A stretch of 64,000 nucleotides of DNA, taken from assembly GCA_963787355.1 (NCBI GenBank), contig CAWBCP010000005.1, positions 58,032-122,031 of the forward strand. The letters are read 5' to 3'. The translations under genes and the position numbers were made by a program. The DNA is from an uncultured Planctomycetaceae bacterium. GTDB lineage: Bacteria; Planctomycetota; Planctomycetia; Pirellulales; PALSA-1355. Numbering within the stretch: position 1 is the stretch's first letter; every line of letters starts with the position of its first letter. This document shows positions 2,980 to 29,949 of this stretch, in pieces. A model generated the notes under the pieces. That model was not told the DNA's origin. It was given only the letters and a program-made list of their open reading frames with translations, and made no database searches.

Positions 2980-4340
2980 ATGCTTTCGATTCTGGGACGG
3001 CGCCCCTCGCGGTTTTGCGACGGACACTCACGGCGGCATTTTCTGAAGATCGGCGGGCTGGCACTCGGCGGGCTGGCGCTGCCGGGGATTCTGCGGGCCG
3101 AAGAGAATTCGCCTACCACGCAAGGAAAGAATCTCTCGCACAAAGCCATCATCATGATCTATCTGTCCGGTGGTCCGTCGCACCAGGACATGTTCGACTT
3201 GAAGATGGACGCGCCGCTGGAGATTCGCGGATCGTTCAAGCCGATCCGGACCAACGTGCCGGGGATCCAGATCTGCGAGCACATGCCGCGGCTGGCGACG
3301 ATGATGGACAAGTTCGCCATCATTCGATCGTTGTACGGCTGCCCCGATCAGCACGCCTCGGACCTGTGCCTGAGCGGCTATCCGATCGGAGCCAGGGGGA
3401 ATCAGGACAATCATCCGTCGCTGGGCTCGGCGCTCTCCAAACTGCAAGGCCCGGTGGACCCGGCCGTGGCGCCGTTTGTGGGCCTGACGATCAAGACCGG
3501 GCACGCGCCGTATTCGAACCCCGGTATGCCGGGTTTCCTGGGAGCGGCCCATGCGCCGTTTCAGCCTGAGGGCGAAGGGATGGCCGACATGCGGCTCAAT
3601 GGCGTGACTCTCGATCAACTTCGCGATCGCCAAGCGCTGCTGTGCAATTTCGATGCATTTCGGCGGCAGATCGATACGCAGCCGGCCTATCGGGATGTCG
3701 ACGCGCTCACACAAAAGGCGTTCGACGTGCTGACGTCAAACAAGCTGGCCAAAGCCCTCGACCTGGAGCAGGAAGACCCGGCCGTGCGGGACCGCTATGG
3801 CCGCGGCAGCGCTGCCCCGGCATTCGGCGAAGACGCCGGTCCGCACTGGATGGATCAATTCCTGATGGCCCGGCGGCTGGTCGAGGCGGGCGTGCGCTGC
3901 GTGACCCTCTCGTTCGGCAGTTGGGACCGTCACGGCGGCGAATTTTGAGCGGTTGCCCGAGCAACTTGGAAAACTGGATCAAGCGATCACGGCACTGGTT
4001 GAAGACCTGCACGCGCGGCGGCCTGGACGAGGACGTGAGCGTGGTGGCCTGGGGCGAATTCGGACGCACCCCCCGGATCAACGCGGGCGGCGGTCGCGAT
4101 CACTGGCCGCAAGTGTCGTGCGCCCTATTGGCCGGCGGCGGGATGCGCATGGGCCAGGTTATCGGCTCCACGAACCGCCTCGGCGAAGTACCGCAAGACC
4201 GGCCCGTTCACTATCAAGACGTCTTCGCCACCCTCTACCGCCAACTCGGCATCGACGCGAATATCGCCACCATCCCCGACCACGCCGGCCGGCCGCAGTA
4301 CCTGCTGGACCGGCGCGAGCCGATCCGAGAGTTGATCTAG
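2980..4340 (+). pseudogene. DUF1501 domain protein (Tat signal RRHFLKIGGLALGGLA, sulfatase-like), interrupted by two +1 frameshifts
   Basis: N-terminal 322 aa in the 2980 frame ends ...SWDRHGGEF*. The conserved continuation [26 protein letters not shown] then [21 protein letters not shown]...GRDHWP is found in two other frames (shifts ~3945 and ~4025). Confidence 0.75.
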
Positions 4341-4570
4341 AGGTGGGGCTGGACGAGTTGCTCGTGGCGATTGGCGCCCCGCCCGAGGTGATGGTTCAAT
4401 GTGGCGGTCGATGTGACCGGATCACGATTTGCGGAAAGGGGGCGAATCTCAGAGTGCTCGCAGAGCGTTTGAGCGTTCGATATCTGATCGCGGATCGGGG
4501 AGCAAGAGATCGACGGCAGCATGTGACGCGGCAAAAACAGTCGTTCAAGAATCGCGCGGCACAAGATAGA

Positions 4571-6541
4571 ATGAGTGCTGCGACGACGAGAGTCGACCGA
4601 TCGCCGCGGGACAGAATCTTGTTGCTGGGAGACGGATTTATTGCTGTCGAGAGTTACTTCGACCAGTTCCATCGATGGCTCGACTTAGAGTCGGCTGCCG
4701 AAGCTCAAGAGTTGGCGGAACGCCGCCAGCTGCGCGCCCGCACGACGGCGGAACAAGGAGGCGAGGCCCTGTTGGACCTTGCGATCCAAGACCATCGCCC
4801 CGGCTTGGGGGGCCGGCATCTCTTCACGTTTGTCAAGCGGAACCGCACGTTGAGTTTACCCTGGAATCGGTTGCGCGTTGGCTCGCCCGTCGTGATCACT
4901 TCGCTGGACAATGCTGATGAGTCGCCGCGGAGCGGTGTCGTGAGCGCGCGAAAAATCGATTCGATCCAGGTTGCCGTCGACCATTGGATCTCGGGCGACC
5001 GTTTTGATCTGGACCTTTCGACGGACGAAGTGTCGCGCAATCGAGAGCGGGCCTCGCTGCAAAACGTTGCTGCGGTGCGCGGTCGTCTGGGCGAGCTACG
5101 GCAAATCGCCCTAGGGGATCGCGATCCAGGCTATGCGAAGCGCCGGCAGCCGAGGTTCGGCGAAGTCAGGCCGCTGGCCGGCGCCGATGGCCTCAACCCG
5201 TCGCAACGTGCAGCGATTGAATTCGCCCTGTCGGCCGAGGACATCGCGATCATCCATGGGCCGCCGGGCACCGGCAAGACCACGTCCGTGGCAGCGTTCA
5301 TTCGACAGGCCGCGCTCCGCGGCGAAAAGGTGCTGGCCTGCGCGCCGAGCAATACGGCGGTCGACAATCTGCTGGAACAGTTGGTCGACTACGGGCAGTC
5401 GGTCGTGCGCATCGGGCATCCGGCGCGTCAAGGACGCGTTGCGCAGCCACACGCTCGATGCTTTGGTCGAAACCCACGACAACATGCGCCTGGTGAAGGA
5501 CCTGTTGCGCCAGGCCGAGGATCTGTACCGGAAGGCGGATCGGTATACGCGCGCAAGCCGGCCCGCGGCGCCAAGCACGACATGCGGCGCGAAGCTCGGC
5601 AACTCAAGGCGGAAGCGCGCCAATTCGAACGGCAGGCGATCGATCACGTGCTCGACCGCGCCGATGTGATCTGCGCTACGACGTCGATCGACGACCTGGT
5701 GCTGGGGGATCGCTCGTTCGATTGGGTCGTGATCGACGAGGCGTGCCAGTGTACCGAATCCGCTAGCTGGGTACCGCTGCAGCGCGGCCGTCGCTTTCTG
5801 CTGGCCGGCGATCATTGTCAGCTTCCGCCGACAGTGATCTCGACAGTCGCGGCACGCGAAGGATATTCGCGGAGCATGCTCGAACGGCTGGTCGAGACTT
5901 TTGGCACGGCGATCACCCGACAACTGGACGTGCAATATCGCATGCACGTGGCGATCATGCGGTTCTCGTCCGGGCAGTTTTACGGCGACACGCTACAGGC
6001 CCATGAAACGGTGCGAAGCCACGTCTTGTCTGACTTGCCGAACGTGAGCTCGTCGCCGCTGACCGACGAGCCGATGGAGTATATCGATACGGCCGGCGCG
6101 AACTATGACGAGGAGGAGGAGCCGGACGGCTCCAGCAGGCGAAACCCGGCGGAAGGCCGTCTGGTGCTGTCAAAGGTCCGGCAGTTGCTCGAGGCGGGGC
6201 TGCCGGCCAGCGAGATCGCGGTGATCGCGCCCTATGCCGCGCAGGTCCGTTGGTTGCGCGAGCACGCGCCGGATAGCGGGCTCGAAATCGACACGGTCGA
6301 CGGTTTTCAAGGCCGCGAAAAGGAGGCCGTGGTCATCTCTCTCGTCCGTTCGAATCGCGAGGGGGAAATTGGATTCCTGCAGGATACGCGGCGGATGAAC
6401 GTTGCCCTGACGCGCGCCCGTCGTAAGTTGATCGTGGTAGGGGACAGCGCGACGCTTGGAGGAAATCCGTTTTACGCGGCACTCTTGGCGTACTTCGAAG
6501 CCACCGACAGTTACCACACCGTATGGGAAGAATCGAATTGA
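4571..6541 (+). CDS. Superfamily-1 DNA/RNA helicase, Upf1/IGHMBP2-like (AAA_11/AAA_12)
   Basis: Walker A GPPGTGKT; motifs DEACQ, VGDHCQLPP, VQYRMH and GFQGREKEAVVISLVRSN. The start is taken at ATG 4571 (alternative 4391); the upstream part of the long ORF is the DUF1501 tail in another frame. A 45-aa segment (~5425-5560) reads as conserved GHPAR..HTLDALVETHDNMRLVKDL only in the +1 frame, indicating a pair of compensating frameshifts. Confidence 0.75.
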   Translation: MSAATTRVDRSPRDRILLLGDGFIAVESYFDQFHRWLDLESAAEAQELAERRQLRARTTAEQGGEALLDLAIQDHRPGLGGRHLFTFVKRNRTLSLPWNRLRVGSPVVITSLDNADESPRSGVVSARKIDSIQVAVDHWISGDRFDLDLSTDEVSRNRERASLQNVAAVRGRLGELRQIALGDRDPGYAKRRQPRFGEVRPLAGADGLNPSQRAAIEFALSAEDIAIIHGPPGTGKTTSVAAFIRQAALRGEKVLACAPSNTAVDNLLEQLVDYGQSVVRIGHPARQGRVAQPHARCFGRNPRQHAPGEGPVAPGRGSVPEGGSVYARKPARGAKHDMRREARQLKAEARQFERQAIDHVLDRADVICATTSIDDLVLGDRSFDWVVIDEACQCTESASWVPLQRGRRFLLAGDHCQLPPTVISTVAAREGYSRSMLERLVETFGTAITRQLDVQYRMHVAIMRFSSGQFYGDTLQAHETVRSHVLSDLPNVSSSPLTDEPMEYIDTAGANYDEEEEPDGSSRRNPAEGRLVLSKVRQLLEAGLPASEIAVIAPYAAQVRWLREHAPDSGLEIDTVDGFQGREKEAVVISLVRSNREGEIGFLQDTRRMNVALTRARRKLIVVGDSATLGGNPFYAALLAYFEATDSYHTVWEESN

Positions 6542-9930: not shown

Positions 9931-10944
9931 TTAACGTCGCCGCCGTCGCCAGGTCCAGGCGATGAGGCTGACGAGGGCAAAGGCAGCCAGCACTGCCGTA
10001 CTTGGCTCAGGGACGCTTGCCACGCGGAAGCCGAAGAGGTAGTACTCGAACGTCGGGCTAATGCCGCCCCGGTTCGAGGACTGCAAGGGGAGCGAGTCGT
10101 CGAGCCACGAACCGCCGCGCAAACCCCGATACGAACCGCTAATCAAGGCCTCGTTCCATTGAAACACGTTGCCTCCCATGTCATATACGCCGTAGGGGCT
10201 GGCCGACGCGGTGTAGGTGCCCACAGCAGTCAAATAGCTCTGACTGCTGCTGTAGCTCGTGGAGCCAGTCACCGCGAATGCACCACCGGGGCTCAGGAAG
10301 TTCCCCGTGTCAGGGGTGCTGCCCGGAGGTGCGGACGTTGGCACGGTGTTGCTGGAAAACGGGTACTGATTATAGGAACCGGCCGGGTTATAATAAGCCG
10401 CCTTGTACCACTCGCTTTCGCTGGGAATGAAGATCGTGGCGTCGGAATTACGCGTGAACGCGTTCAACGCGGCTTGTGAGGTGGCTCCGTTGAGCGTATA
10501 CGCGCCGGTTTCGGTCGTGCCCGGGCCTTCGGCTCCGGTTGGCTGTCCGTTTTGCAGCCAGTTGGAAAAGCGGGCCGCGTCGCCCCAATTCACGTAGGTG
10601 ATCGGCAGATTGGCCGAAGTGCCGATCACGCTGTACGTATAGCTGCCCGAAGAACCGCTGCGGGAGATGCCCTCGATGTTTTGGTCGGTGCCCATCGATG
10701 GGTTGTAGAGCCCGTAGGTGTCGGTGGCCGCCACGGAATTTAAGAACTCCGTGTACTGGCCGACCGTGACATCGTACTTGTCGATGCTGTAGTTGTAGGC
10801 CACCGCGCCGTAGAGATTGCCGGTGGCCGGGTCGTTGGCGTTGCCCGCATTGCCGACGGGCACCCAGTCGATCGTGACTGGGGTAGCCGAAGCCGGGAGG
10901 GCGGAGGCCAGCAAGGCGACACAGGCAGCCAGCGAAGCCGCCAA
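9931..10944 (-). CDS. Module 4: FGE/SUMF1-family (DUF323) domain with PEP-CTERM tail (paralog A, ~80% aa identity to module 1)
   Basis: Possible TTG start 10944, giving signal peptide (R)ALAASLAACVALLASALPASA. FGE motifs (ITYVNWGDAARFSNWLQNG, YDMGGNVFQWNE, RGLRGGSW); terminal VPEPSTAVLAAFALVSLIAWTWRRRRR then TAA at 9931-9933. Confidence 0.55.
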   Translation of the reverse strand: MAASLAACVALLASALPASATPVTIDWVPVGNAGNANDPATGNLYGAVAYNYSIDKYDVTVGQYTEFLNSVAATDTYGLYNPSMGTDQNIEGISRSGSSGSYTYSVIGTSANLPITYVNWGDAARFSNWLQNGQPTGAEGPGTTETGAYTLNGATSQAALNAFTRNSDATIFIPSESEWYKAAYYNPAGSYNQYPFSSNTVPTSAPPGSTPDTGNFLSPGGAFAVTGSTSYSSSQSYLTAVGTYTASASPYGVYDMGGNVFQWNEALISGSYRGLRGGSWLDDSLPLQSSNRGGISPTFEYYLFGFRVASVPEPSTAVLAAFALVSLIAWTWRRRRR

Positions 10945-13900
10945 GGCACGGCGCCGTCGTCGCAGGGCGACCAATAGCAGCGATAGCCCGCCCAAACCGG
11001 CCAGCACGGCCGTGCTTGGCTCGGGCACGAGCGAGATCGAGGTGATCGTGCCGTAGAACGCGTCGATATCCATGTGCGATTCATCGGTCAACACCAGGCT
11101 GAACTGGTTGATGGTCGGGAACAGATTGAGATCCGGAGCCACGGTCGGCAGCGCATCGCTGGCGTTGGCCGTCTTGCTGGCATCGGTGAGCATCAGGATT
11201 TGCGAGTCGACGACGTAACCATTATGAGGATCGTTCGCCGAATTCCAGATGCCATAGCGATCGTCGTTGAAGGGATCGTCGGCAAAGATCTCGATCCGGT
11301 TCTGTCCGCTTACATCGGCTGCCGTCTGGAAGACCATGCTGTTGATGGTCGTGGTCATCCCGAAAGCCCCACCGGTCGTGTAGCGGTACTCGCCCTGGGT
11401 TGCCGTCGCGTTGGAATCCGCCAGGGTCGAGTCGTACGTGTAGCTGCCGGTGAAGGTATCGCCCGCCGAGACGGTGTTGGCAAAAAAGCCGTTGTCGGTG
11501 TCGGCGAAGTCGACCGTGCCTTCGAACTGAACCGTGATCGGCGCGGCCGGTGCGCTCGTAGCGAGCAGCAGGAGCAGTCCCAGGCACAAAGTTGTCGCGA
11601 TCGAGCGAACCGCAATGCGAGCCCGACGCCGATGGCGCCGAGCGAACAACAGCAGGCCGACTGCACCGCAGGCAGCCAGCACGAGCGTCGACGGTTCGGG
11701 GACAGGCGTAAGCACGAACGCGCGCGTTTCGCCGCTGGGGTTGTCGCCGTACCCAACGATCTGCCCTGCGTTGTTGATGCCTTGAACGGATGAGAGCGTC
11801 CAGCCACTGCCCGAGGAGTCCAAAAGGCTACTGAGGTCAAGCCAACCGTCCGCGGGAGTCCAAAGTGATGGAACGAAAGGGTGACCAGTCAAGGCATTCA
11901 CTCCCACGATGTAGCCGTGGTCATTAATTGCGTAAGCGTAGCTTTGGCTGTATCCGGCCAGAACTCCAAGGTCTTGGAAGCCCGAAGACGTGGACCAAAG
12001 AAAAGCGTGCCCGTTGTTGCTCCACCCGACAACCTGTTCGAGTTCATTGATTCCGTACGCCGTGCTCGTGGTTGCGCCAGAAGGCACGCCAAGGTTTTGA
12101 ACCGTTCCGGCCGGCGTCCAAAGCACGGCGCGCTGCCCCCCCGTCGAATCGCTCCATCCAACGCTATACCCCGAATCATTGATGTCATATGCCTGGCTGC
12201 TGGCCCCCGCGACAAGGACAGGCAGTGGTTGCATGCCAGTGCTTGAAGTCCACTGAATCGCGCGAGGGGTCAAAGACGCCGAGTCGCTCACGCCGACGAG
12301 ACGGCCGCTCGAATTAATGTCGTCGCCGACTGCCAAACTGTCACCCGGCAGCTTGCCGATGTGTTGCAATCCCGAGGAGGCATCCCAAATAAAGACTTCC
12401 CCATCGGCTGTGCCGACAACCTGGCCGCAATCGCCTATTCCACGCGCATAGGTGACATTGCCCGTCCCGATTTCGGTCATGCCGCTCTGAGGCGACCAAA
12501 AAAAAGCTTCTTGAAACGAACCACCCAGTGCCGGCAACCTCTCCATCTTCGTTGATCCCGTATCCCCGGCTGACACTGATGCCGTTTTGAATTCCCGGCA
12601 GTTCCGCGATGCCGAGGTCGACGATGCTGTAGGTGATTGTTGTCGCCGCCGCCGGTGCCGAAAACAGCGCCACGGCAGTGACCGAAGTCGCCGCGCAGAG
12701 AACTTGGCGCGGCCAGGTCAAACGCTGGAATTGGCGAGGTTTTAATCGCCGCCGTCCGGCAAGCCACAGCAAACCGACTGCCCCGCAGGCGGCCAGTACA
12801 AACGTCGACGGCTCAGGGACCGATGCCACACGGAACCCGAAAATGCTGTTCTCGCCCGTCGGGAAGTTGATGATCCGGTACGAGGACTGCAAGGAGCTCG
12901 AGTAGTCGAGCCACGAACCCCCCCGCAGACCCCGATACGAACCGCTGATTAAGGTTTCGTTCCATTGCCATACGTCGCCGCCCATGTCGTACGCCCCGTA
13001 GGGGCCGGCCGACGCGGTGTAGGTGCCAACGGCCGTCAAATAGTTCTGGCTGCTGCTGTAGCTCGTGGAGTGCGTGACGGCGTAACCCGTCGTGGAATCA
13101 TAAAGGTTCCCGGTGTTGGGCGTGCTGCCTGGCACGGCCGAAGTCGGGACGGTGTTGCTAGAGAACGGGTACTGATAATACCCGCCCGCGCCGCTGTTGA
13201 GTGTTGGGTCGTAGTACGCCGCCTTGTACCACTCGCTCTCGCTGGGAATGAAGACCGTGGCGTCGGCGTTGCGCGTGATCGCGTTCAACGCGGCGTTGGA
13301 GGTTGCGCCGTTGAGCGTGTACGCACCGGTTTCCGTCGTGCCCGCGCCTTCGGCTCCGGTCGGCTGTCCGTTTTGCAGCCAGTTGGAAAATCGGGCCGCG
13401 CCGCCCCAATTGACGTACGTAATTGGCAGATTGGCCGACGAGCCGATGACGCTGTACGCATAGCTGCCTGAGGAGCCGCTGCGGGAAATGCCCGCGATGT
13501 TGAGGTTGCTGGCCATCGATGGGCTGTAGAGCCCGTAGGTGTCGGTGGCCGCCACGGCGTTCAGGAACTCGGTGTACTGGCCGACGGTCACATCATACTT
13601 GTCGATGCTGTAGTTGTAGGCGACTGCACCGTAGAGAGAGCCCGTGTTGGGATCGGCCGCATTGCCGGCGTTGCCGACTGGCACCCAGTCGATCGTGACT
13701 GGGGTAGCCGAAGCCGGTAGGGCGGAGGCGAGCAAGGCGACACAGGCAGCCAGCGAAGCCGCCAAGGTAAGGCGCCGTCGTCGCAGGGCGACCAATAGCA
13801 GCACCAGCCCGCCCAAACCGGCCAGCCCGAGTGAACTAAAGTTAGCGCCAGCCACCCCCGGCACGCCGCCGGGTCCGGATTGAACGATCGTCTGAGTGAT

Positions 13901-14131
13901 GCCCCATTGCGCATGGCTCGCAGAGACCGTGTAGGTGAAGCATAGCAATACCAAGACGATGCGACAGCAGACTCGACGAGGATGAAATTTGATGCGACGG
14001 GCATCCGCAAGCACGGCCGAATTTGTCCCCGTCATTGCTTGTCGAAGAGTCTGGGGCAAAACGGCCGGATCAGGTCCATTGGACTGGATTTGTGTGATCG
14101 TCACGGAGGTCGCTGGAAGCTCAAGGGTCAT
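9931..14131 (-). CDS. Composite multi-module PEP-CTERM reading frame as sequenced (FGE-like / HAF-repeat / unknown / FGE-like). It has no internal stop codons and one frame break at an A8 tract (12499-12506)
   Basis: Two overlapping long ORFs (12341..14131 and 9931..12576) joined by deleting one A in the homopolymer. There are four internal or terminal PEP-CTERM-like segments (VPEPST + TM + Arg cluster), each followed directly in frame by a signal-peptide-like segment. Confidence 0.45.
10948..11589 (-). CDS. Module 3: secreted domain of unknown family with PEP-CTERM tail
   Basis: Signal-like LCLGLLLLLATSAPAAP (possible TTG start 11589); ~190 aa Ser/Thr/Asp-rich domain; ends VPEPSTAVLAGLGGLSLLLVALRRRRR. 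Confidence 0.45.
11623..12720 (-). CDS. Module 2: HAF-family extracellular repeat domain with PEP-CTERM tail
   Basis: Repeated ~40-aa units (YGINE.GQVVG...HAFLW...G..DLG); possible TTG start at 12720; ends VPEPSTLVLAACGAVGLLLFARRHRRR; frameshift at the A8 tract. Confidence 0.5.
12745..14035 (-). CDS. Module 1: formylglycine-generating-enzyme (SUMF1/EgtB/PvdO, DUF323) family domain with PEP-CTERM tail (paralog B)
   Basis: Candidate start is ATG 14035, giving signal peptide RRVCCRIVLVLLCFTYTVSASHA. FGE-family motifs (ITYVNWGGAARFSNWLQNG, YDMGGDVWQWNE, RGLRGGSW); ends VPEPSTFVLAACGAVGLLWLAGRRR. The N-terminal ~80 aa carry a remnant PEP-CTERM-like TM segment. Confidence 0.5.
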
Positions 14132-14215: not shown

Positions 14216-14482
14216 TCACACACAGGGGCGTGCCCGTTGGCGGCGGCGCTGCCCAGCGCTCGAACCTTCGAGCGTGGCAGTTCCCGAAGTCGTGGTGATC
14301 GAGGTGCCCATCACGGTTGAACCGTCGTCGGCGGACACGCCAAGGGCTTGGCTGAGGTAGGCGCCGCCAGGCAGATCTACCAGGGGAGCAAATGAGTAGG
14401 TTGAGGCACGGACTTCCGACGAGGCGAACAAGATGAGAAGTGCCAAGGACGGAGGAATGAGTTCTGACCTGCTGCGGTGCAT
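14216..14482 (-). CDS. small secreted protein, HAF-like N-terminal fragment (possibly truncated or frameshifted)
   Basis: ATG 14482; signal peptide MHRSRSELIPPSLALLILFASSEVRA followed by a HAF-like start (YSFAPLVDLPGGAYLSQALGVSADDGSTVMGTS), then low-complexity sequence. Confidence 0.3.
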   Translation of the reverse strand: MHRSRSELIPPSLALLILFASSEVRASTYSFAPLVDLPGGAYLSQALGVSADDGSTVMGTSITTTSGTATLEGSSAGQRRRQRARPCV

Positions 14483-14826
14483 TAGCGGCCCCCAGTTTTT
14501 TTGCGGTTGAGTGGCGGGGTGTGCGTTGGAGTGCGCGACGAGTTGTCCCGCACGGTCATCCCCGAAGACTTCACCGCGAGCTGCGCGACCGCTTGAGTCC
14601 ACGGTCCGCCATCGAGTCGCCGCGCACTCCCACGTATCCAACAGGCACGCGGAAGCGGCCCAATCCGCCGCGCGGCAGAGAAAAACTTTCCGATTTGTCG
14701 TGATCGTCTGTTTGAGATGGCGAAAAAATGCTTGCGGGGCCGCCCAAGCCCGCTTAACCTGATAAGACTCATCTGCGGGACTGTCGGATTTCCGACGAGA
14801 GCGTGTCTATTGAGATAGGGTGATCG

Positions 14827-15451: not shown

Positions 15452-18400
15452 TGAGCGATCCCGGTGGCGAGTCCCGAGACCAGCTTCTCGCGTCACTGCT
15501 GATCGCTTATGATGAAACGCTCGACGACCCCTGCGCAGCCAGTCGCCACGACGTTACTCGACTCGGATGCCGACCTAGCCGAGCGGTTTCGCAATGCCCG
15601 CGAGTGTCTCGATCTGCTCGACCGGATGCGGCGCGTACGGCGGTGCGGCGTTGACACCGTGCGGGGAAGCCAACGAAGCGCAGTGTGAACATGAATGGCC
15701 CGCGACGATCGGCCGATTCCAAATTGAGCGCGAGGTAGGGCGCGGTGGCTTGGGTGTGGTGCTGCTGGCCCGCGACCCGCAACTGGGGCGCCGCGTGGCC
15801 ATCAAAATCCCCCGCCCGGAGATCGTCGGCGGCGAAGAGGCACGCCGGCGCTACCTCGCGAGGCCGAGGCCGCAGCGAGGCTGAATCACCCCTGTCTCGT
15901 CGCGCTGCACGAAGTCGGCCATCAAGGCTCCTTATGTTATCTCGTTTCGGAATACTGCACCGGCCCGACTTTGCGCAATGGCACAAGGACCATCCGGGCC
16001 CGGTGAATCCTCGGCAGGCCGCCGCGCTAGTCGAGCAGTTAGCCCTGGGCGTGCATCACGCGCACAATCGCGGCGTGCTGCACCGCGACATCAAGCCAAG
16101 CAATGTTCTGCTGGTTGGCCTGGCGGCCGTCAGCCCGGACGGCGTGGAAGCGTCCGCAATGCAGGCCGCGACATCTTCCGGCCAACCGAGCGACGGTCCC
16201 CTGGCGGCCGATCAACTCTGCCCCAAGCTGACCGACTTCGGCATGGCCAAGTTGGCCGAATCCCGGGGTGACGAAACGCGCTGGGAATGATCCTCGGCAC
16301 GCTGGCCTACATGGCGCCCGAGCAGGCCGAAGGTCGGCTCCGCGATCTCGACGCGCGGGTCGACGTCTATTCGCTGGGGGCTGTGCTCTATGAATTATTG
16401 ACCGGCACCGCGCCCTACCGCGGTGCGTCCGATGTCGACACGTTGCGGCAACTGCTGGTGAACGAACCGGTGCGGCCGCGAGCCGTGTCGAAGCATGTGC
16501 CGCGCGACTTGGAGGCGATCGCGCTGAAGTGCCTGGCCAAGGATCCCACGGGCCGATATGCCACGGCACAGCACTTGGCCGAGGATTTGCGGCGCTTCCT
16601 GGCCCGCCAGCCGACGCTCGCCCGCCCACTGGGCACGACGCGGCGGCTGTGGAAATGGGCACGGCGCAGGCCGGCAGTTGCCACGTTACTGGCGGTGTTG
16701 TGCGTCTCGGCGATCGGGCTGTTCGGCATCGCGGCGGCGTACAACGCGCGGCTGGGCGCGGCCTTGGAGGATTCTCGGCGATTGCTGTACGCGGCTGACA
16801 TGAAACTGGCATTCGATTCCTGGCACGCCGACAGCGCTCGCACCTTGGCGGAGCGCCTGGCCCGCTACGAGCCGAACGGTGGCCGGTCCGACGTACGGAC
16901 ATTTCCCTGGTACTTTTTATCCCGGCAAAGATACGGCGATCGGACGGACCTCTACCGGCACAAGGACACGGTTTACGCCGTGGCCTGGTCTCCGCGCGGC
17001 GACTTAATCGCCAGCGGCGGCGTCGGCGGATTGATCTACATTTGGGACGTGGCGGCACGAAAGGTTCGTAAGACGCTTGACGACCACCGTACCGACGTCA
17101 ACGGCGTTGCCTTTTCGGCTGATGGCACGCTGCTGGCGTCCTGCGGCGACGACTTGACGATCCGGATCTGGCAGATCGACAGCGACGAACCGCCGCGAAA
17201 ACTTAAGCTGGTGACCTTTAAAGACCTGAACTGCCTGGTTTTCTCGCCCGATGGGCGCTGGCTGGCCGCCGGCGGCGAGGACCAAAAGACGCGAATCTGG
17301 GACACGACAACGTGGAAGCTGAATCGCATGATTTCGGCGGCCGACGCTGCGGTCAATCGGATCGCCTTCTCACCCGATAGCAGGCGGCTGGCCATCACGC
17401 ATAGCAGTGGCGTCGGCGCGATCGTGGACGCCGAATCCGGGCAGGTTCTCCGCACGCTCGACCGACGCGAGGGGCGGGCGAGCGGCATGGGCGAGGTGGC
17501 CTTCTCCCGCGATGGACGCCTGCTGGCCGTAGCCAACTTCAAGTTGCAGCAAGTCGACCTTTGGGACCCCGACACGGGCGAGCGGCTCAGATCGCTCCAC
17601 AGCAACGGCAACTGGCTGCAAGCGCTGGCGTTTTCCCCCGACGATCGCCGCCTGTTGACCGGCTCGCAGGACGGCGCCCTGCGTGTGTGGGATGTCGAAA
17701 CGCTGGAGCTGGTGCATGTGCTGTTGGGACACGACAAGGACGTTCGCGACGTCGCCTTCTCGCCGTCCGGCGACGTCGTCGTCTCGGCAGGAAAGGATGG
17801 CACGGTGAAGCTGTGGGACTTGGCGGCCATCGAATATCGCCAGACCACCGTCAACTTCGCCGAAAAGGTCATGACGCTGGAGTTCCTTCCGGGCCAGCAA
17901 TTGCTGGCAATCGAAGAAAAATTTGGGCCGCTGCGGCTGATGAACGTCGTGACCCGAGACATCGTGTTCGAGAGCCGCGGCCCGCGGCAGAATGCCGACT
18001 GGATGATCGCCGTCTCACCGGACGGCAAGCGACTGGCCTATACCACGGGCGAGAGCCGCGAGATGCAATTGCTCGACGTGGCCGGGTGGCGCGCTCAAGC
18101 CGTACTCAAGTCGCAAAATGCCCGATTTCGTTGCGCCGCCTTTTCACTCCAAGGAGACTTCATCGCGACCGGCGATGAAGGGGGGTCGCTCGTTTTGTGG
18201 GACGCATCCTCGCTCAAACAACTCCGCACGTGTAACACTGGTCAAGGCAACGTACTGGCGCTCTGCTTCCTGCCGGGCGGCGAGCAGATTGTCGTGGCCG
18301 GGGACAAAGACGTTCGCGTGTGGGACCTCGGCGCTCGCGATCATGGCGTTCTGCTGCCGGCTAGCGACAAAATTTGGGACATGGCCGTATCGCCCGACGA

Positions 18401-18764
18401 AAGCCTGTTCGCGGCGAGCTGCGTCGACGGCAGCGTGCGGTTGTGGAGCCTGCCCGAATGCCAGCCCCGAGCGACGCTGGTGGGCCATCACGGCTGGTGC
18501 AACGGCATCAGCTTTTCACCCGACGGCACGACCCTGGCATCGGCGGGCAATGACGGCACCGTCCGCCTTTGGGACTTGCGGACCATGCAGGAAATCGGCG
18601 CCATCGCGACGAAGAAGGGCTATGAAATAAATAGCGTTTCGTTCTCTTCAGACGGCCAAACCCTGGCCGCCGCAGCCTCGGCGGATCGATCCGGCTTGAC
18701 CCTCCTTTGGTCGCAGGCCCGTCCGCGTTCAAACCCCACGCAAGAAGCCAGCTCGGCGCGTTAA
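15451..18764 (+). CDS. Ser/Thr protein kinase with C-terminal WD40 beta-propeller repeats; kinase domain broken by at least 3 frameshifts (15.56-16.29 kb)
   Basis: ATG 15451 overlaps the sigma stop (TGATG). Kinase subdomains are scattered over frames: GRGGLGVV..VAIK (15594 frame), HRDIKPSNVLL..DFGMAK (15745 frame) and APE..DVYSLG plus TM and WD40 repeats (16287 frame). Confidence 0.7.
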
Positions 18765-28923: not shown

Positions 28924-29949
28924 ATGAAATCGTTCGCTGCAGCCATTCTGATCGCAATGACGTTCGTGCGCGCGGCTGTTGCCGTGCAAATCCATGTGGG
29001 CGATATTGTCGCTCCTCAATTCGACAACGTTGGCACGATAGTTGTAGTTCACACTGACACGGGAAATCGAGAAGTCCTTTCTCACTATCCCGACGTTGGG
29101 CAGGGACCAGCAGAGTACCGACCGACGAGCATCGCGAGATTGCCGGAGGGAGATTTTCTTGTAACGGAGGCGTTTTTCAACCAAGCGCTTTATCGAATTA
29201 GTGCAACAACCGGCAATCGTACTCTCATCTCCGGGATCGCGGAAACGACTCGTGGATCCGGACCCATTGACCATCCTCAAACGGTGCTGTTTAGATCGTC
29301 GGGCGATGCGATCCTAACGAACTCGGCACATCTTAACTACAGCACCGGATTCGTTACTCGCGTGGATTTGACAACGGGAGACCGCACATTGATTTCCGGA
29401 TTGGGAGTGGGAAGCGGGCCGCAATTCGACTATCCCGCAGGTGGTGCAATTGACGCCGCTGGCAAGCTTATCGTTGCGGACAATGCATTACCGGCGATTT
29501 TTAGCGTAGACCTTACAACGGGCGCAAGAACTGTTATTTCCGGCCTGGGGCATGGCACCGGTCCGGCACTTCCAAACATCCAAGACCTTGTGATATTGCC
29601 CGGCGGCCAGATCATGACGGAAGGCAATCATCAGCTGCTTCGCATCGATCCCACAAGTGGGAATCGAACACTAATTTCAACGGCATCAAACGACTACGAG
29701 CGAATTGCACTTGGCGCGAACGGTAGCCTTCTTGCCTCTACGGTAGGAGCGATACTGTCAGTCGATCCCACAACCGGAATCGAAACCGTTGTCTCGGCGA
29801 ACGGGGTCAATAGTGGTCCGAATCTCTTCTGGGGAGATATGGTTGTCGTTCCGGAGCCGACCACTGGAATCCTTTTCGTGCTTGGGATATTTATTCTTGC
29901 GCTCAAACGGTCTGCACGGCTCGTACGTGAACCATCTGACATTGACTAA
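28924..29949 (+). CDS. PEP-CTERM-anchored secreted protein with ~7 imperfect 'TTG.RTLISG' repeats (beta-propeller-like); low GC (~50%)
   Basis: Signal peptide MKSFAAAILIAMTFVRAAVA; repeated (T/S)TG(N/D)RT(L/V)ISG(L/I)... units; C-terminal VVPEPTTGILFVLGIFILALKRSARL. Confidence 0.65.
   Translation: MKSFAAAILIAMTFVRAAVAVQIHVGDIVAPQFDNVGTIVVVHTDTGNREVLSHYPDVGQGPAEYRPTSIARLPEGDFLVTEAFFNQALYRISATTGNRTLISGIAETTRGSGPIDHPQTVLFRSSGDAILTNSAHLNYSTGFVTRVDLTTGDRTLISGLGVGSGPQFDYPAGGAIDAAGKLIVADNALPAIFSVDLTTGARTVISGLGHGTGPALPNIQDLVILPGGQIMTEGNHQLLRIDPTSGNRTLISTASNDYERIALGANGSLLASTVGAILSVDPTTGIETVVSANGVNSGPNLFWGDMVVVPEPTTGILFVLGIFILALKRSARLVREPSDID

What the first reader, a model, noticed from the sequence alone, without database searches (positions are those of the whole stretch)
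9931..14131. Four PEP-CTERM modules fused in one reading frame with no stop codons between them
Reading the minus strand from 14131 to 9931, each module ends with a canonical exosortase sorting signal (VPEPST + hydrophobic helix + Arg cluster). The same frame then continues straight into a signal-peptide-like segment of the next module. The junctions read ...GRRRLKPRQFQRLTWPRQVLCAATSVTAVALFSAPAAA..., ...ARRHRRRARIAVRSIATTLCLGLLLLLATSAPAAP... and ...LRRRRRALAASLAACVALLASALPASATP.... No in-frame stop occurs until the terminal TAA at 9931, and no ATG lies at any internal junction; only TTG codons are available. Either these are separate genes with TTG starts whose upstream stops are all missing (unlikely to happen four times by chance), or the locus encodes a polyprotein in which the Arg-rich PEP-CTERM tail doubles as the n-region of the next signal peptide. 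Modules 1 and 4 are ~80% identical FGE/SUMF1-like domains, so recombination or assembly collapse among repeats is also possible.
Basis: seen in the sequence. Interest (0 to 1): 0.75.

Follow-up and report, generated by a model that had tools for sequence, protein, structure and literature searches.

The report
Secreted polyprotein of fused PEP-CTERM modules
Four complete "signal peptide – domain – PEP-CTERM anchor" units are joined end to end with no stop codons between them, and the same arrangement (up to 11 units per reading frame) recurs in many Planctomycetota genomes, so it probably encodes a secreted polyprotein that I found described in no paper.

Summary
The three stop-less junctions are real. 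Each has VPEPS, a hydrophobic helix and an Arg cluster, then runs straight into a signal-peptide core ending in A-x-A. The "single reading frame" is not real. The locus is two minus-strand ORFs (14131..12341 and 12576..9931) offset by +1. The switch lies in the only 8-base homopolymer of the window (12498-12505). Removing one T gives one 1,399-codon ORF and restores a HAF repeat.

The fusion is neither chance nor mis-assembly. 38 tight junctions occur in relatives of about 45% identity. A junction profile scanned against 1.84 billion proteins found 116 of the top 146 clusters with internal junctions, up to 11 modules per ORF. One five-module protein is identical on 12 independently assembled contigs. 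Internal PEP-CTERMs score as well as terminal ones. 7 of 17 junctions have no possible start codon.

Best reading: a polyprotein whose linkers are helix–Arg–helix hairpins, so every domain is exported. Signal peptidase I would cut after A-x-A and exosortase at PEP. Cleavage is inferred, not shown.

This copy carries a frameshift, probably an assembly indel, and has a scrambled 5' end. I rate it a new variant of a known kind, with no report found in the literature.

The parts
13910..14035 (-). Likely N-terminal signal peptide of the whole polyprotein (MTGTNSAVLADARRIKFHPRRVCCRIVLVLLCFTYTVSASHA). It starts at the second ATG; the first ATG of the ORF is at 14131.
   Evidence: Read by eye from the sequence: basic n-region, hydrophobic core, SHA at -3..-1. 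No SignalP-type tool was available.
13772..13909 (-). Stub: a 26-aa loop, then a degenerate anchor (LGLAGLGGLVLLLVALRRRR) that lacks the PEP motif. It is the remnant of an upstream module lost by recombination.
   Evidence: DNA similarity to the module 3/4 junction begins at about 13832 / 11010, inside the anchor helix.
13706..13771 (-). Internal signal-peptide-like segment 1 (LTLAASLAACVALLASALPASA).
   Evidence: 92-97% DNA identity to the copy at 10885-10947. It ends in A-S-A.
12821..13705 (-). Module 1 passenger: FGE-sulfatase-fold domain without cysteines.
   Evidence: PF03781, E 3.5e-21. 0 Cys. dN/dS 0.21 against module 4.
12746..12820 (-). PEP-CTERM 1 (VPEPSTFVLAACGAVGLLWLAGRRR), internal, with no stop after it.
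   Evidence: PF07589 at residues 437-462 of the 596-aa ORF.
12644..12745 (-). Junction 1-2: linker plus signal-peptide-like segment 2 (LKPRQFQRLTWPRQVLCAATSVTAVALFSAPAAA).
   Evidence: The only candidate in-frame start is one TTG.
11704..12643 (-). Module 2 passenger: HAF-repeat domain, split between two frames in this assembly.
   Evidence: TIGR02913 HAF_rpt, 4.7e-27. After removing one T, a HAF repeat match (24.3 bits, cut-off 22.65) spans the repaired site.
12498..12505 (-). T8 homopolymer (A8 on the + strand) where the reading frame shifts by +1. T7 would give one continuous ORF.
   Evidence: It is the only run of 8 in the window.
11623..11703 (-). PEP-CTERM 2 (VPEPSTLVLAACGAVGLLLFARRHRRR), internal.
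11545..11622 (-). Signal-peptide-like segment 3 (ARIAVRSIATTLCLGLLLLLATSAPA).
11029..11544 (-). Module 3 passenger: about 172-aa domain of unknown family, predicted mostly beta.
   Evidence: No Pfam or NCBIfam hit outside its tail. No homologues found. AlphaFold2 on the single sequence gave pLDDT 41.
10948..11028 (-). PEP-CTERM 3 (VPEPSTAVLAGLGGLSLLLVALRRRRR), internal.
   Evidence: TIGR02595 at 517-543 of the 881-aa ORF.
10885..10947 (-). Signal-peptide-like segment 4 (ALAASLAACVALLASALPASA). It follows the Arg cluster with no linker.
10015..10884 (-). Module 4 passenger: FGE-sulfatase-fold domain without cysteines, paralogue of module 1.
   Evidence: PF03781, 9.9e-22. Nearest solved structures are PvdO 5hha and SUMF2 1y4j. 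0 Cys.
9931..10014 (-). PEP-CTERM 4 (VPEPSTAVLAAFALVSLIAWTWRRRRR) followed directly by TAA. This is the only canonical, terminal sorting signal of the array.
   Evidence: PF07589 at 854-879.

Best explanation
The locus is one gene for a secretory polyprotein, a member of a class that is widespread in Planctomycetota. In this assembly it is interrupted by a single-base indel.

The gene strings together complete exosortase-substrate units: signal peptide, passenger domain, PEP-CTERM anchor. Here the order is a short stub, an FGE-fold domain, a HAF-repeat domain, an orphan domain, and a second FGE-fold domain.

Each linker is a membrane hairpin. The PEP-CTERM helix crosses the membrane from outside to inside. 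The Arg/Lys cluster stays in the cytoplasm. The next hydrophobic core crosses back out. Every passenger domain therefore ends up in the periplasm.

Inferred, not shown: signal peptidase I cuts after the A-x-A that ends each hairpin, and exosortase cuts at each PEP. One translation product would then yield several separate surface or secreted proteins plus small leftover hairpins.

The near-identical junction DNA probably also serves as the site of unequal recombination that duplicates, deletes and shuffles modules.
For: Shown:
1. Three junctions in the window have no stop and no spacer, and keep canonical VPEPS, helix, Arg cluster, hydrophobic core and A-x-A.
2. The same architecture occurs in divergent relatives. 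15 of the best hits to the 881-aa ORF are HAF–PEP-CTERM–signal peptide–FGE–PEP-CTERM fusions at 34-51% identity; P0002 has 3 modules and P0004 has 4.
3. Fused ORFs occur in the Planctomycetota loci L002, L037 (5 modules, 2,605 codons), L042, L044, L045, L050, L056 and L071.
4. 38 tight junctions align with PEP invariant and the -1 Ala at 90% or more.
5. An exhaustive profile scan of 1.84e9 cluster representatives gave 346 hits at E<=1e-10. Of the top 146, 116 have at least one internal junction and 35 have two or more, 175 junctions in all. P0241 has 11 modules in 2,500 aa.
6. It is not an assembly artefact. P0253 (5 modules) is identical on 12 contigs from JGI, NCBI and Logan assemblies.
7. 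Internal PEP-CTERMs are not degenerate. Their median score is 43.1 bits, against 33.6 bits for held-out terminal ones, using an HMM trained on terminal ones.
8. Separate initiation is often impossible. 7 of 17 junctions with DNA have no in-frame ATG/GTG/TTG, and only 3 have ATG. Only 59 of 175 have a Met near the next core.
9. The loop between the two hydrophobic segments has a net charge of +3 to +7, median +5. This fits the positive-inside rule.
10. In fused modules the mature domain starts at the same distance after A-x-A as in stand-alone genes with a Met-initiated signal peptide.
11. Both FGE paralogues in the window are under purifying selection: dN/dS 0.21, dS 0.67.
12. Removing one T restores a HAF repeat across the frameshift.
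Against: - No experimental evidence exists for either cleavage; both are inferred from motif conservation.
- No exosortase gene lies in the window. A crude transmembrane count found no 8-TM ORF, and the rest of the genome could not be examined.
- As assembled, this copy is frameshifted, has a scrambled 5' end (a stub without PEP) and sits next to a gene fragment. This particular locus could be decaying.
- No signal-peptide predictor was available. Literal A-x-A is present in only 120 of 175 junctions of the wider set.
- Most relatives of the FGE module are ordinary single-module genes: 57 of 72.
Confidence: 0.65

Rival explanations
1. The ORF encodes an uncleaved multi-pass membrane protein. 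The helix–Arg–helix hairpins would simply tether several periplasmic domains to the inner membrane, and the PEP and A-x-A motifs would be inherited relics.
For: The topology argument is identical. No cleavage data exist. 55 of 175 junctions lack a literal A-x-A.
Against: PEP is invariant and the -1 Ala is at 90% or more across junctions of unrelated passenger domains. Internal PEP-CTERMs score at least as high as terminal ones. Relics without function should drift, as Haft et al. 2006 assumed for atypically placed copies (PMC1569441).
Confidence: 0.15
2. In this genome the array is a decaying pseudogene cluster. Recombination among paralogous PEP-CTERM genes fused them, a real T7-to-T8 mutation broke the frame, and nothing downstream of module 2 is made.
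For: The frameshift at 12498-12505. A stub module without PEP and a truncated HAF-like gene fragment at 14216-14641. Duplication boundaries inside PEP-CTERM segments. A second split gene (the kinase) at about 16280.
Against: dN/dS between FGE modules 1 and 4 is 0.21 with dS 0.67, so both were kept functional for most of their history. No other stop or frameshift occurs in 4.2 kb. The indel sits in the only 8-base homopolymer of the window, which is typical of an assembly error. Intact fused ORFs are common elsewhere.
Confidence: 0.15
3. These are four separate genes with TTG starts, whose upstream stop codons are missing through sequencing error or mis-assembly of repeats.
For: One in-frame TTG lies near the start of each internal hydrophobic core in the window. 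The junction repeats are 92-97% identical over about 150 nt.
Against: There is no room for a stop, spacer and start; in junction 3-4 the Arg cluster abuts the hydrophobic core. Three independent stop losses would be needed. Relatives show the same fusion with no start codon at all in 7 of 17 cases. The same fused protein is found identical in 12 contigs. Mis-joining at the junction repeat would keep the frame and could not delete stops.
Confidence: 0.03

Closest known systems
PEP-CTERM / exosortase (EpsH, Xrt) protein-sorting system (TIGR02595, PF07589; Haft et al. 2006, PMC1569441)
   Same: Each module has the tripartite signal: PEP, a hydrophobic helix and a basic cluster. Each is preceded by a signal-peptide-like segment and carries a passenger domain typical of PEP-CTERM proteins (HAF repeats, FGE fold, LamG). 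The last module is a textbook example ending 0 residues before the stop.
   Different: The family is defined as C-terminal: 87% of members have fewer than 10 residues after the domain, and the rare internal copies were suspected to be non-functional. Here 3 of 4 signals (and up to 10 of 11 in relatives) are internal, well conserved, and fused to the next signal peptide.
Viral envelope polyproteins processed by host signal peptidase (for example the flavivirus C-prM-E-NS1 region and pestivirus Erns-E1-E2). General knowledge; the papers listed deal with these systems.
   Same: A single ORF in which a membrane anchor is followed by an internal signal sequence. Successive ectodomains are translocated and separated by signal peptidase on the far side of the membrane.
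   Different: Those are eukaryotic ER systems in viruses, with no second sorting protease. Here the upstream end of each hairpin carries a second predicted cleavage and attachment signal (PEP) for exosortase, and the host is a bacterium.
Bradyrhizobium japonicum FbcH cytochrome b–c1 precursor (own knowledge: Thöny-Meyer and co-workers, about 1989-1991; not retrieved here)
   Same: A bacterial polyprotein in which an internal signal sequence after a membrane segment is cleaved to release a second, periplasm-facing protein.
   Different: It has a single junction, in a respiratory complex. It has no sorting signal and no modular repetition.
Formylglycine-generating enzyme family (PF03781) and its non-catalytic relatives PvdO and SUMF2/pFGE
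   Same: Modules 1 and 4 match PF03781 (E about 1e-21). Their nearest solved structures are PvdO 5hha and SUMF2 1y4j.
   Different: The mature modules contain no cysteine. By established knowledge they therefore cannot carry the catalytic Cys pair of copper-dependent FGE. They share the fold, not the enzyme activity.

Membership tests
PEP-CTERM sorting domain (TIGR02595 / PF07589) | PEP motif, then a hydrophobic helix of about 13-20 residues, then a cluster of Arg/Lys | tested here: met
   Four copies. PF07589 total 45.6 bits with 3 stretches in the 881-aa ORF and 19.6 bits in the 596-aa ORF. TIGR02595 30.6 bits.
PEP-CTERM sorting domain (TIGR02595 / PF07589) | Located at the extreme C-terminus (87% of members have fewer than 10 residues after it; Haft 2006) | tested here: not met
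   Only the copy at 9934-10014 is terminal. The other three are followed by 134 to 567 further codons.
PEP-CTERM sorting domain (TIGR02595 / PF07589) | An N-terminal signal peptide on the same polypeptide | tested here: inconclusive
   Signal-peptide-like segments (basic region, hydrophobic core, A-x-A) precede every module, and one lies at the N-terminus of the ORF. They were judged by pattern only, because no predictor was available.
PEP-CTERM / exosortase system | An exosortase (EpsH/Xrt) gene in the same genome | not testable with these tools
   Only the 64-kb window is available. No multi-TM ORF was seen in it. The source contig could not be retrieved.
HAF repeat proteins (TIGR02913) | Several copies of the 39-residue HAF repeat | tested here: met
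   E 4.7e-27, 3 stretches reported. One more repeat spans the repaired frameshift.
Formylglycine-generating enzyme (catalytic FGE) | FGE-sulfatase fold (PF03781) | tested here: met
   E 3.5e-21 and 9.9e-22.
Formylglycine-generating enzyme (catalytic FGE) | Pair of catalytic, copper-binding cysteines | tested here: not met
   Zero cysteines in either mature module. The nearest solved relatives are PvdO and SUMF2.
Signal-peptidase-processed polyprotein | One ORF with membrane anchors, each followed by an internal signal sequence with small residues at -3 and -1 | tested here: met
   A-x-A ends 27 of 30 aligned junctions.
Signal-peptidase-processed polyprotein | Demonstrated cleavage into separate mature proteins | not testable with these tools
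   This needs proteomics or tagged expression.

The most novel reading that the evidence does not exclude
Planctomycetota use a so far undescribed gene organisation: 'beads-on-a-string' secretory polyproteins of 2 to at least 11 modules. Their linkers are dual-cleavage membrane hairpins formed by a PEP-CTERM anchor and the next signal peptide, with the Arg cluster shared as cytoplasmic loop and n-region. Signal peptidase I and exosortase together would release many different cell-surface proteins from one translation product. The conserved junction DNA would act as a recombination cassette boundary that lets modules be duplicated and shuffled.
Probability: 0.55. Interest if true: 0.8.

Novelty: new variant of a known kind. 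Interest (0 to 1): 0.72.

Why it matters
PEP-CTERM/exosortase sorting is defined as a C-terminal signal on single proteins, and internal copies were dismissed as probably non-functional.

A conserved class of ORFs that chains up to 11 complete export-and-sorting units would be a rare bacterial case of a secretory polyprotein. It would have several consequences:
- Gene callers and annotators currently label these ORFs as one "PEP-CTERM sorting domain-containing protein". That label would need rethinking.
- It would give a natural test bed for exosortase and signal peptidase specificity, because both cut sites sit about 45 residues apart on one hairpin.
- It would suggest how planctomycetes diversify their cell-surface proteins by shuffling modules.

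The idea is directly testable by proteomics on any cultured carrier.

Tried and rejected
- Retrieving the source contig through the identical protein P0001 failed: no record and no names.
- A word-index search with the junction alignment A1 returned only short, ordinary terminal PEP-CTERM fragments. It was replaced by the exhaustive profile scan.
- The homologue search for module 3 found nothing. AlphaFold2 on the single sequence gave pLDDT 41, so no fold search was made.
- I tested whether the unusually conserved junction DNA hides an RNA structure. z-scores were -1.5 to +0.07, so there is no support. Gene conversion is the simpler reading.
- I considered a programmed frameshift at the T8 run. 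Going from frame A to frame B needs a +1 shift. The run is not a classical -1 slippery heptamer in the right register, and a second, unrelated frameshift in the window (kinase gene) points to indel errors. It is not excluded.
- Alternative genetic code: rejected, because there are no stop codons of any kind at the junctions (table 11 translations).
- Exosortase in the window: a crude transmembrane count found no candidate. Flanking genes are an ECF sigma factor, a Ser/Thr kinase with WD40 repeats, an ABC-F protein, a helicase and DUF1501.
- Literature searches found nothing describing fused or internal functional PEP-CTERM units. The terms were PEP-CTERM combined with polyprotein, internal signal peptide, fused, or tandem.


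Full report
**1. What is in the sequence**

On the minus strand between 14131 and 9931 there are two long ORFs, not one. They are 14131..12341 (596 aa) and 12576..9931 (881 aa, TAA at 9931-9933).

Pfam and NCBIfam give this order:
- FGE-sulfatase fold (PF03781, 3.5e-21) with PEP-CTERM;
- HAF repeats (TIGR02913, 4.7e-27) with PEP-CTERM;
- a stretch of about 172 aa with no family, with PEP-CTERM;
- FGE-sulfatase fold (9.9e-22) with PEP-CTERM.

Each has VPEPS, a hydrophobic helix and an Arg cluster. It then runs without a stop into a hydrophobic core ending in APAAA, APA or ASA. No in-frame ATG or GTG lies at any junction, only TTG.

The two ORFs are offset by +1 and overlap at 12341-12576. The switch lies in a T8 run (12498-12505), which is the only homopolymer of length 8 in the 64-kb window. 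Deleting one T fuses everything into one ORF of 1,399 codons from the ATG at 14131. The HAF-repeat model then matches across the repaired site (24.3 bits, cut-off 22.65).

So the stop-less junctions are confirmed, and the single frame is not.

**2. The 5' end and the internal duplication**

Upstream of module 1 the same ORF carries three elements:
- a plausible N-terminal signal peptide (13910-14035);
- a 26-aa loop;
- an anchor without a PEP motif that runs into signal peptide 1.

DNA similarity between this region and the module 3/4 junction starts inside the anchor helix (about 13832 / 11010). It ends inside the next PEP-CTERM (about 12810 / 10000). The duplicated unit is therefore [anchor helix – RRRR – signal peptide – FGE domain – VPEPS].

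The two FGE copies are 82% identical in protein. Their dN/dS is 0.21 and dS is 0.67, so both were under purifying selection. The 45 junction codons have dS of only 0.07. RNA folding gives no signal there (z -1.5 to 0.07). Gene conversion or recent recombination at the junction is the simplest reading.

Further upstream, 14216-14641 holds a signal peptide plus about 60 aa of a HAF-like gene that then breaks off.

**3. Is the fusion real biology?**

*Homologues of the 881-aa ORF.* P0001 is the identical public protein; it was called from an internal ATG. Next come 15 proteins at 34-51% identity from other metagenomes. Each is a single ORF with HAF repeats, PEP-CTERM, Arg cluster, hydrophobic core, A-x-A, FGE domain and PEP-CTERM. 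P0002 has three modules and P0004 has four.

*Related genomic loci.* A scan of one genome per species gave 80 loci with relatives of the FGE module. Six-frame analysis found 124 PEP-CTERM motifs. 72 have a stop within 5 codons of the basic cluster. 18 read on for at least 60 codons. The tight cases are in L002, L037 (five modules in a 2,605-codon ORF), L042, L044, L045, L050, L056 and L071. Their passenger domains are unrelated to one another: Kelch-like, pentapeptide repeats with dockerin, LamG-like, NHL-like and Gly-rich.

*Stand-alone genes are the norm.* Of 72 ORFs with the FGE motif, 57 are ordinary single-module genes with a Met-initiated signal peptide. All eight loci with tight fusions are from Planctomycetota: 8 of 45, against 0 of 35 from Verrucomicrobiota and other phyla (Fisher p = 0.008).

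**4. Anatomy of the junction**

38 non-redundant tight junctions were compiled. In the alignment PEP is invariant and the last residue before the mature domain is Ala in at least 90%. The loop between the two hydrophobic segments has a net charge of +3 to +7, median +5.

Internal PEP-CTERMs score higher, not lower, than held-out terminal ones against an HMM trained on terminal ones: median 43.1 against 33.6 bits, p = 0.0013. This contradicts the expectation in Haft et al. 2006 that atypically placed copies are degenerate (PMC1569441).

Of 17 junctions for which DNA is available, 7 have no in-frame ATG, GTG or TTG between the end of the anchor helix and the sixth residue of the next core. Only 3 have ATG. 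Those downstream modules can only be made as part of the long product.

In fused modules the conserved start of the mature domain follows A-x-A at the same distance as in stand-alone genes. Examples are AQA|DVFNMGG and ASA|TPVTIDWVPVGN.

**5. How widespread**

A profile of the junction (A2, 51 positions) was scored against all 1.84 billion cluster representatives. It gave 24,046 hits at E<=1e-3, mostly ordinary PEP-CTERM tails, and 346 hits at E<=1e-10. The best hits have 2-10 matched stretches at internal positions.

Of the top 146 proteins:
- 116 have at least one tight internal junction;
- 35 have two or more;
- there are 175 junctions in total, 60 of them with no residue between the basic cluster and the core;
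- only 59 junctions have a Met nearby.

P0241 (2,500 aa) has 11 modules. P0242 has a HAF domain plus three repeats of a 200-aa domain. P0245 and P0254 have about six LamG-type modules each.

All those that carry a source name are Planctomycetales MAG proteins annotated simply as 'PEP-CTERM sorting domain-containing protein' or 'LamG domain-containing protein'.

P0253 (1,659 aa, five modules) is encoded identically on 12 contigs from JGI, NCBI and Logan assemblies. This rules out an assembly artefact.

A looser class also exists. There the next unit keeps its own Met and n-region, but the stop is still missing (P0027, P0108, L022, L074). This suggests a path from adjacent genes to tight fusions.

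**6. Mechanism**

Shown: a single ORF, conserved junction motifs, a positively charged loop, and absence of start codons.

Inferred: the PEP-CTERM helix (outside to inside), the Arg cluster (cytoplasm) and the next core (inside to outside) form a hairpin. All passenger domains are therefore exported by Sec. Signal peptidase I cuts after A-x-A and exosortase cuts at PEP. This releases separate proteins and leaves hairpins of about 45 residues. The idea rests on the positive-inside rule and the -3/-1 rule (established knowledge), and on the conservation of both motifs.

The closest working analogies are viral envelope polyproteins cut by signal peptidase, and the B. japonicum cytochrome b–c1 precursor (own knowledge).

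The FGE-fold modules have no cysteine. Their nearest solved relatives are PvdO and SUMF2. They are therefore not formylglycine-generating enzymes.

**7. The frameshift**

The indel is in the longest homopolymer of the window. A second gene in the window, the Ser/Thr kinase with WD40 repeats, is also split by a 1-nt shift near 16280. The source contig is 878 kb. Together these suggest a long-read assembly with residual indels.

I put about 60-70% on an assembly error. The rest is shared between a recent real mutation and a slippage-prone tract. Only the reads can tell.

**8. Novelty**

Full-text searches found no description of fused or functional internal PEP-CTERM units. The terms were PEP-CTERM combined with polyprotein, internal signal peptide, fused, or tandem. 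The founding paper treats such cases as rare and probably non-functional.

I therefore rate the finding a new variant of a known kind. The components are known; the polyprotein organisation and the dual-use hairpin linker are not described.

**9. Limits**

- No cleavage data.
- No exosortase seen, because only the window is available.
- No signal-peptide predictor.
- Module 3 remains an orphan.

Noticed in passing
window 15745-18764 (+): A Ser/Thr protein kinase with WD40 repeats is split into two ORFs by a 1-nt frameshift near 16275-16290. The first ORF ends ...DFGMAKLAESRGDETRWE*; the second starts GMILGTLAYMAPEQ.... The shift is not at a long homopolymer. As a second frameshift in 64 kb, it bears on assembly quality.
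   Followed up: partly
window 14216-14641 (-): Gene fragment: a signal peptide plus about 60 aa of a HAF-like protein (MHRSRSELIPPSLALLILFASSEVRA|STYSFAPLVDLPGG...). It then degenerates and ends at a TGA in the same frame as the polyprotein ORF that starts at 14131.
   Followed up: partly
window 13664-13813 vs 10843-10992 (-): The two copies of the anchor–RRRR–signal-peptide junction are 92-97% identical in DNA (dS 0.07). The adjoining FGE domains have dS 0.67. No RNA structure was detected. Gene conversion or recombination at the junctions is suspected.
   Followed up: partly
window 2980-6541 (+): A DUF1501 ORF covers only profile positions 2-259 of 390. It is followed directly by an SF1 helicase (AAA_11/AAA_12) ORF. 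This may be another disrupted gene.
   Followed up: no
window 28924-29949 (+): A fifth PEP-CTERM protein (DUF6923 repeat) of the ordinary kind. It has its own Met-initiated signal peptide, and a stop 12 codons after the basic cluster.
   Followed up: partly
L081 6135-7760 and 7860-9236: A second fused ORF sits 500 bp downstream of the HAF–FGE fusion P0005 and next to an IS66 transposase. It has three units: an N-terminal module, then a short dockerin-containing module, then an FGE module.
   Followed up: no
P0027, P0004 C-terminus, P0108, L022, L074: 'Loose' junctions. The stop codon after the PEP-CTERM is missing, but a spacer follows and the next unit keeps its own Met and n-region (for example ...WKKRKGDLHMKRFLILGVY...). 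These may be intermediates between adjacent genes and tight fusions.
   Followed up: partly
window 11029-11544 (-): The module 3 passenger domain has no detectable homologue or family and no confident structure prediction. It is an orphan domain embedded in the array.
   Followed up: yes
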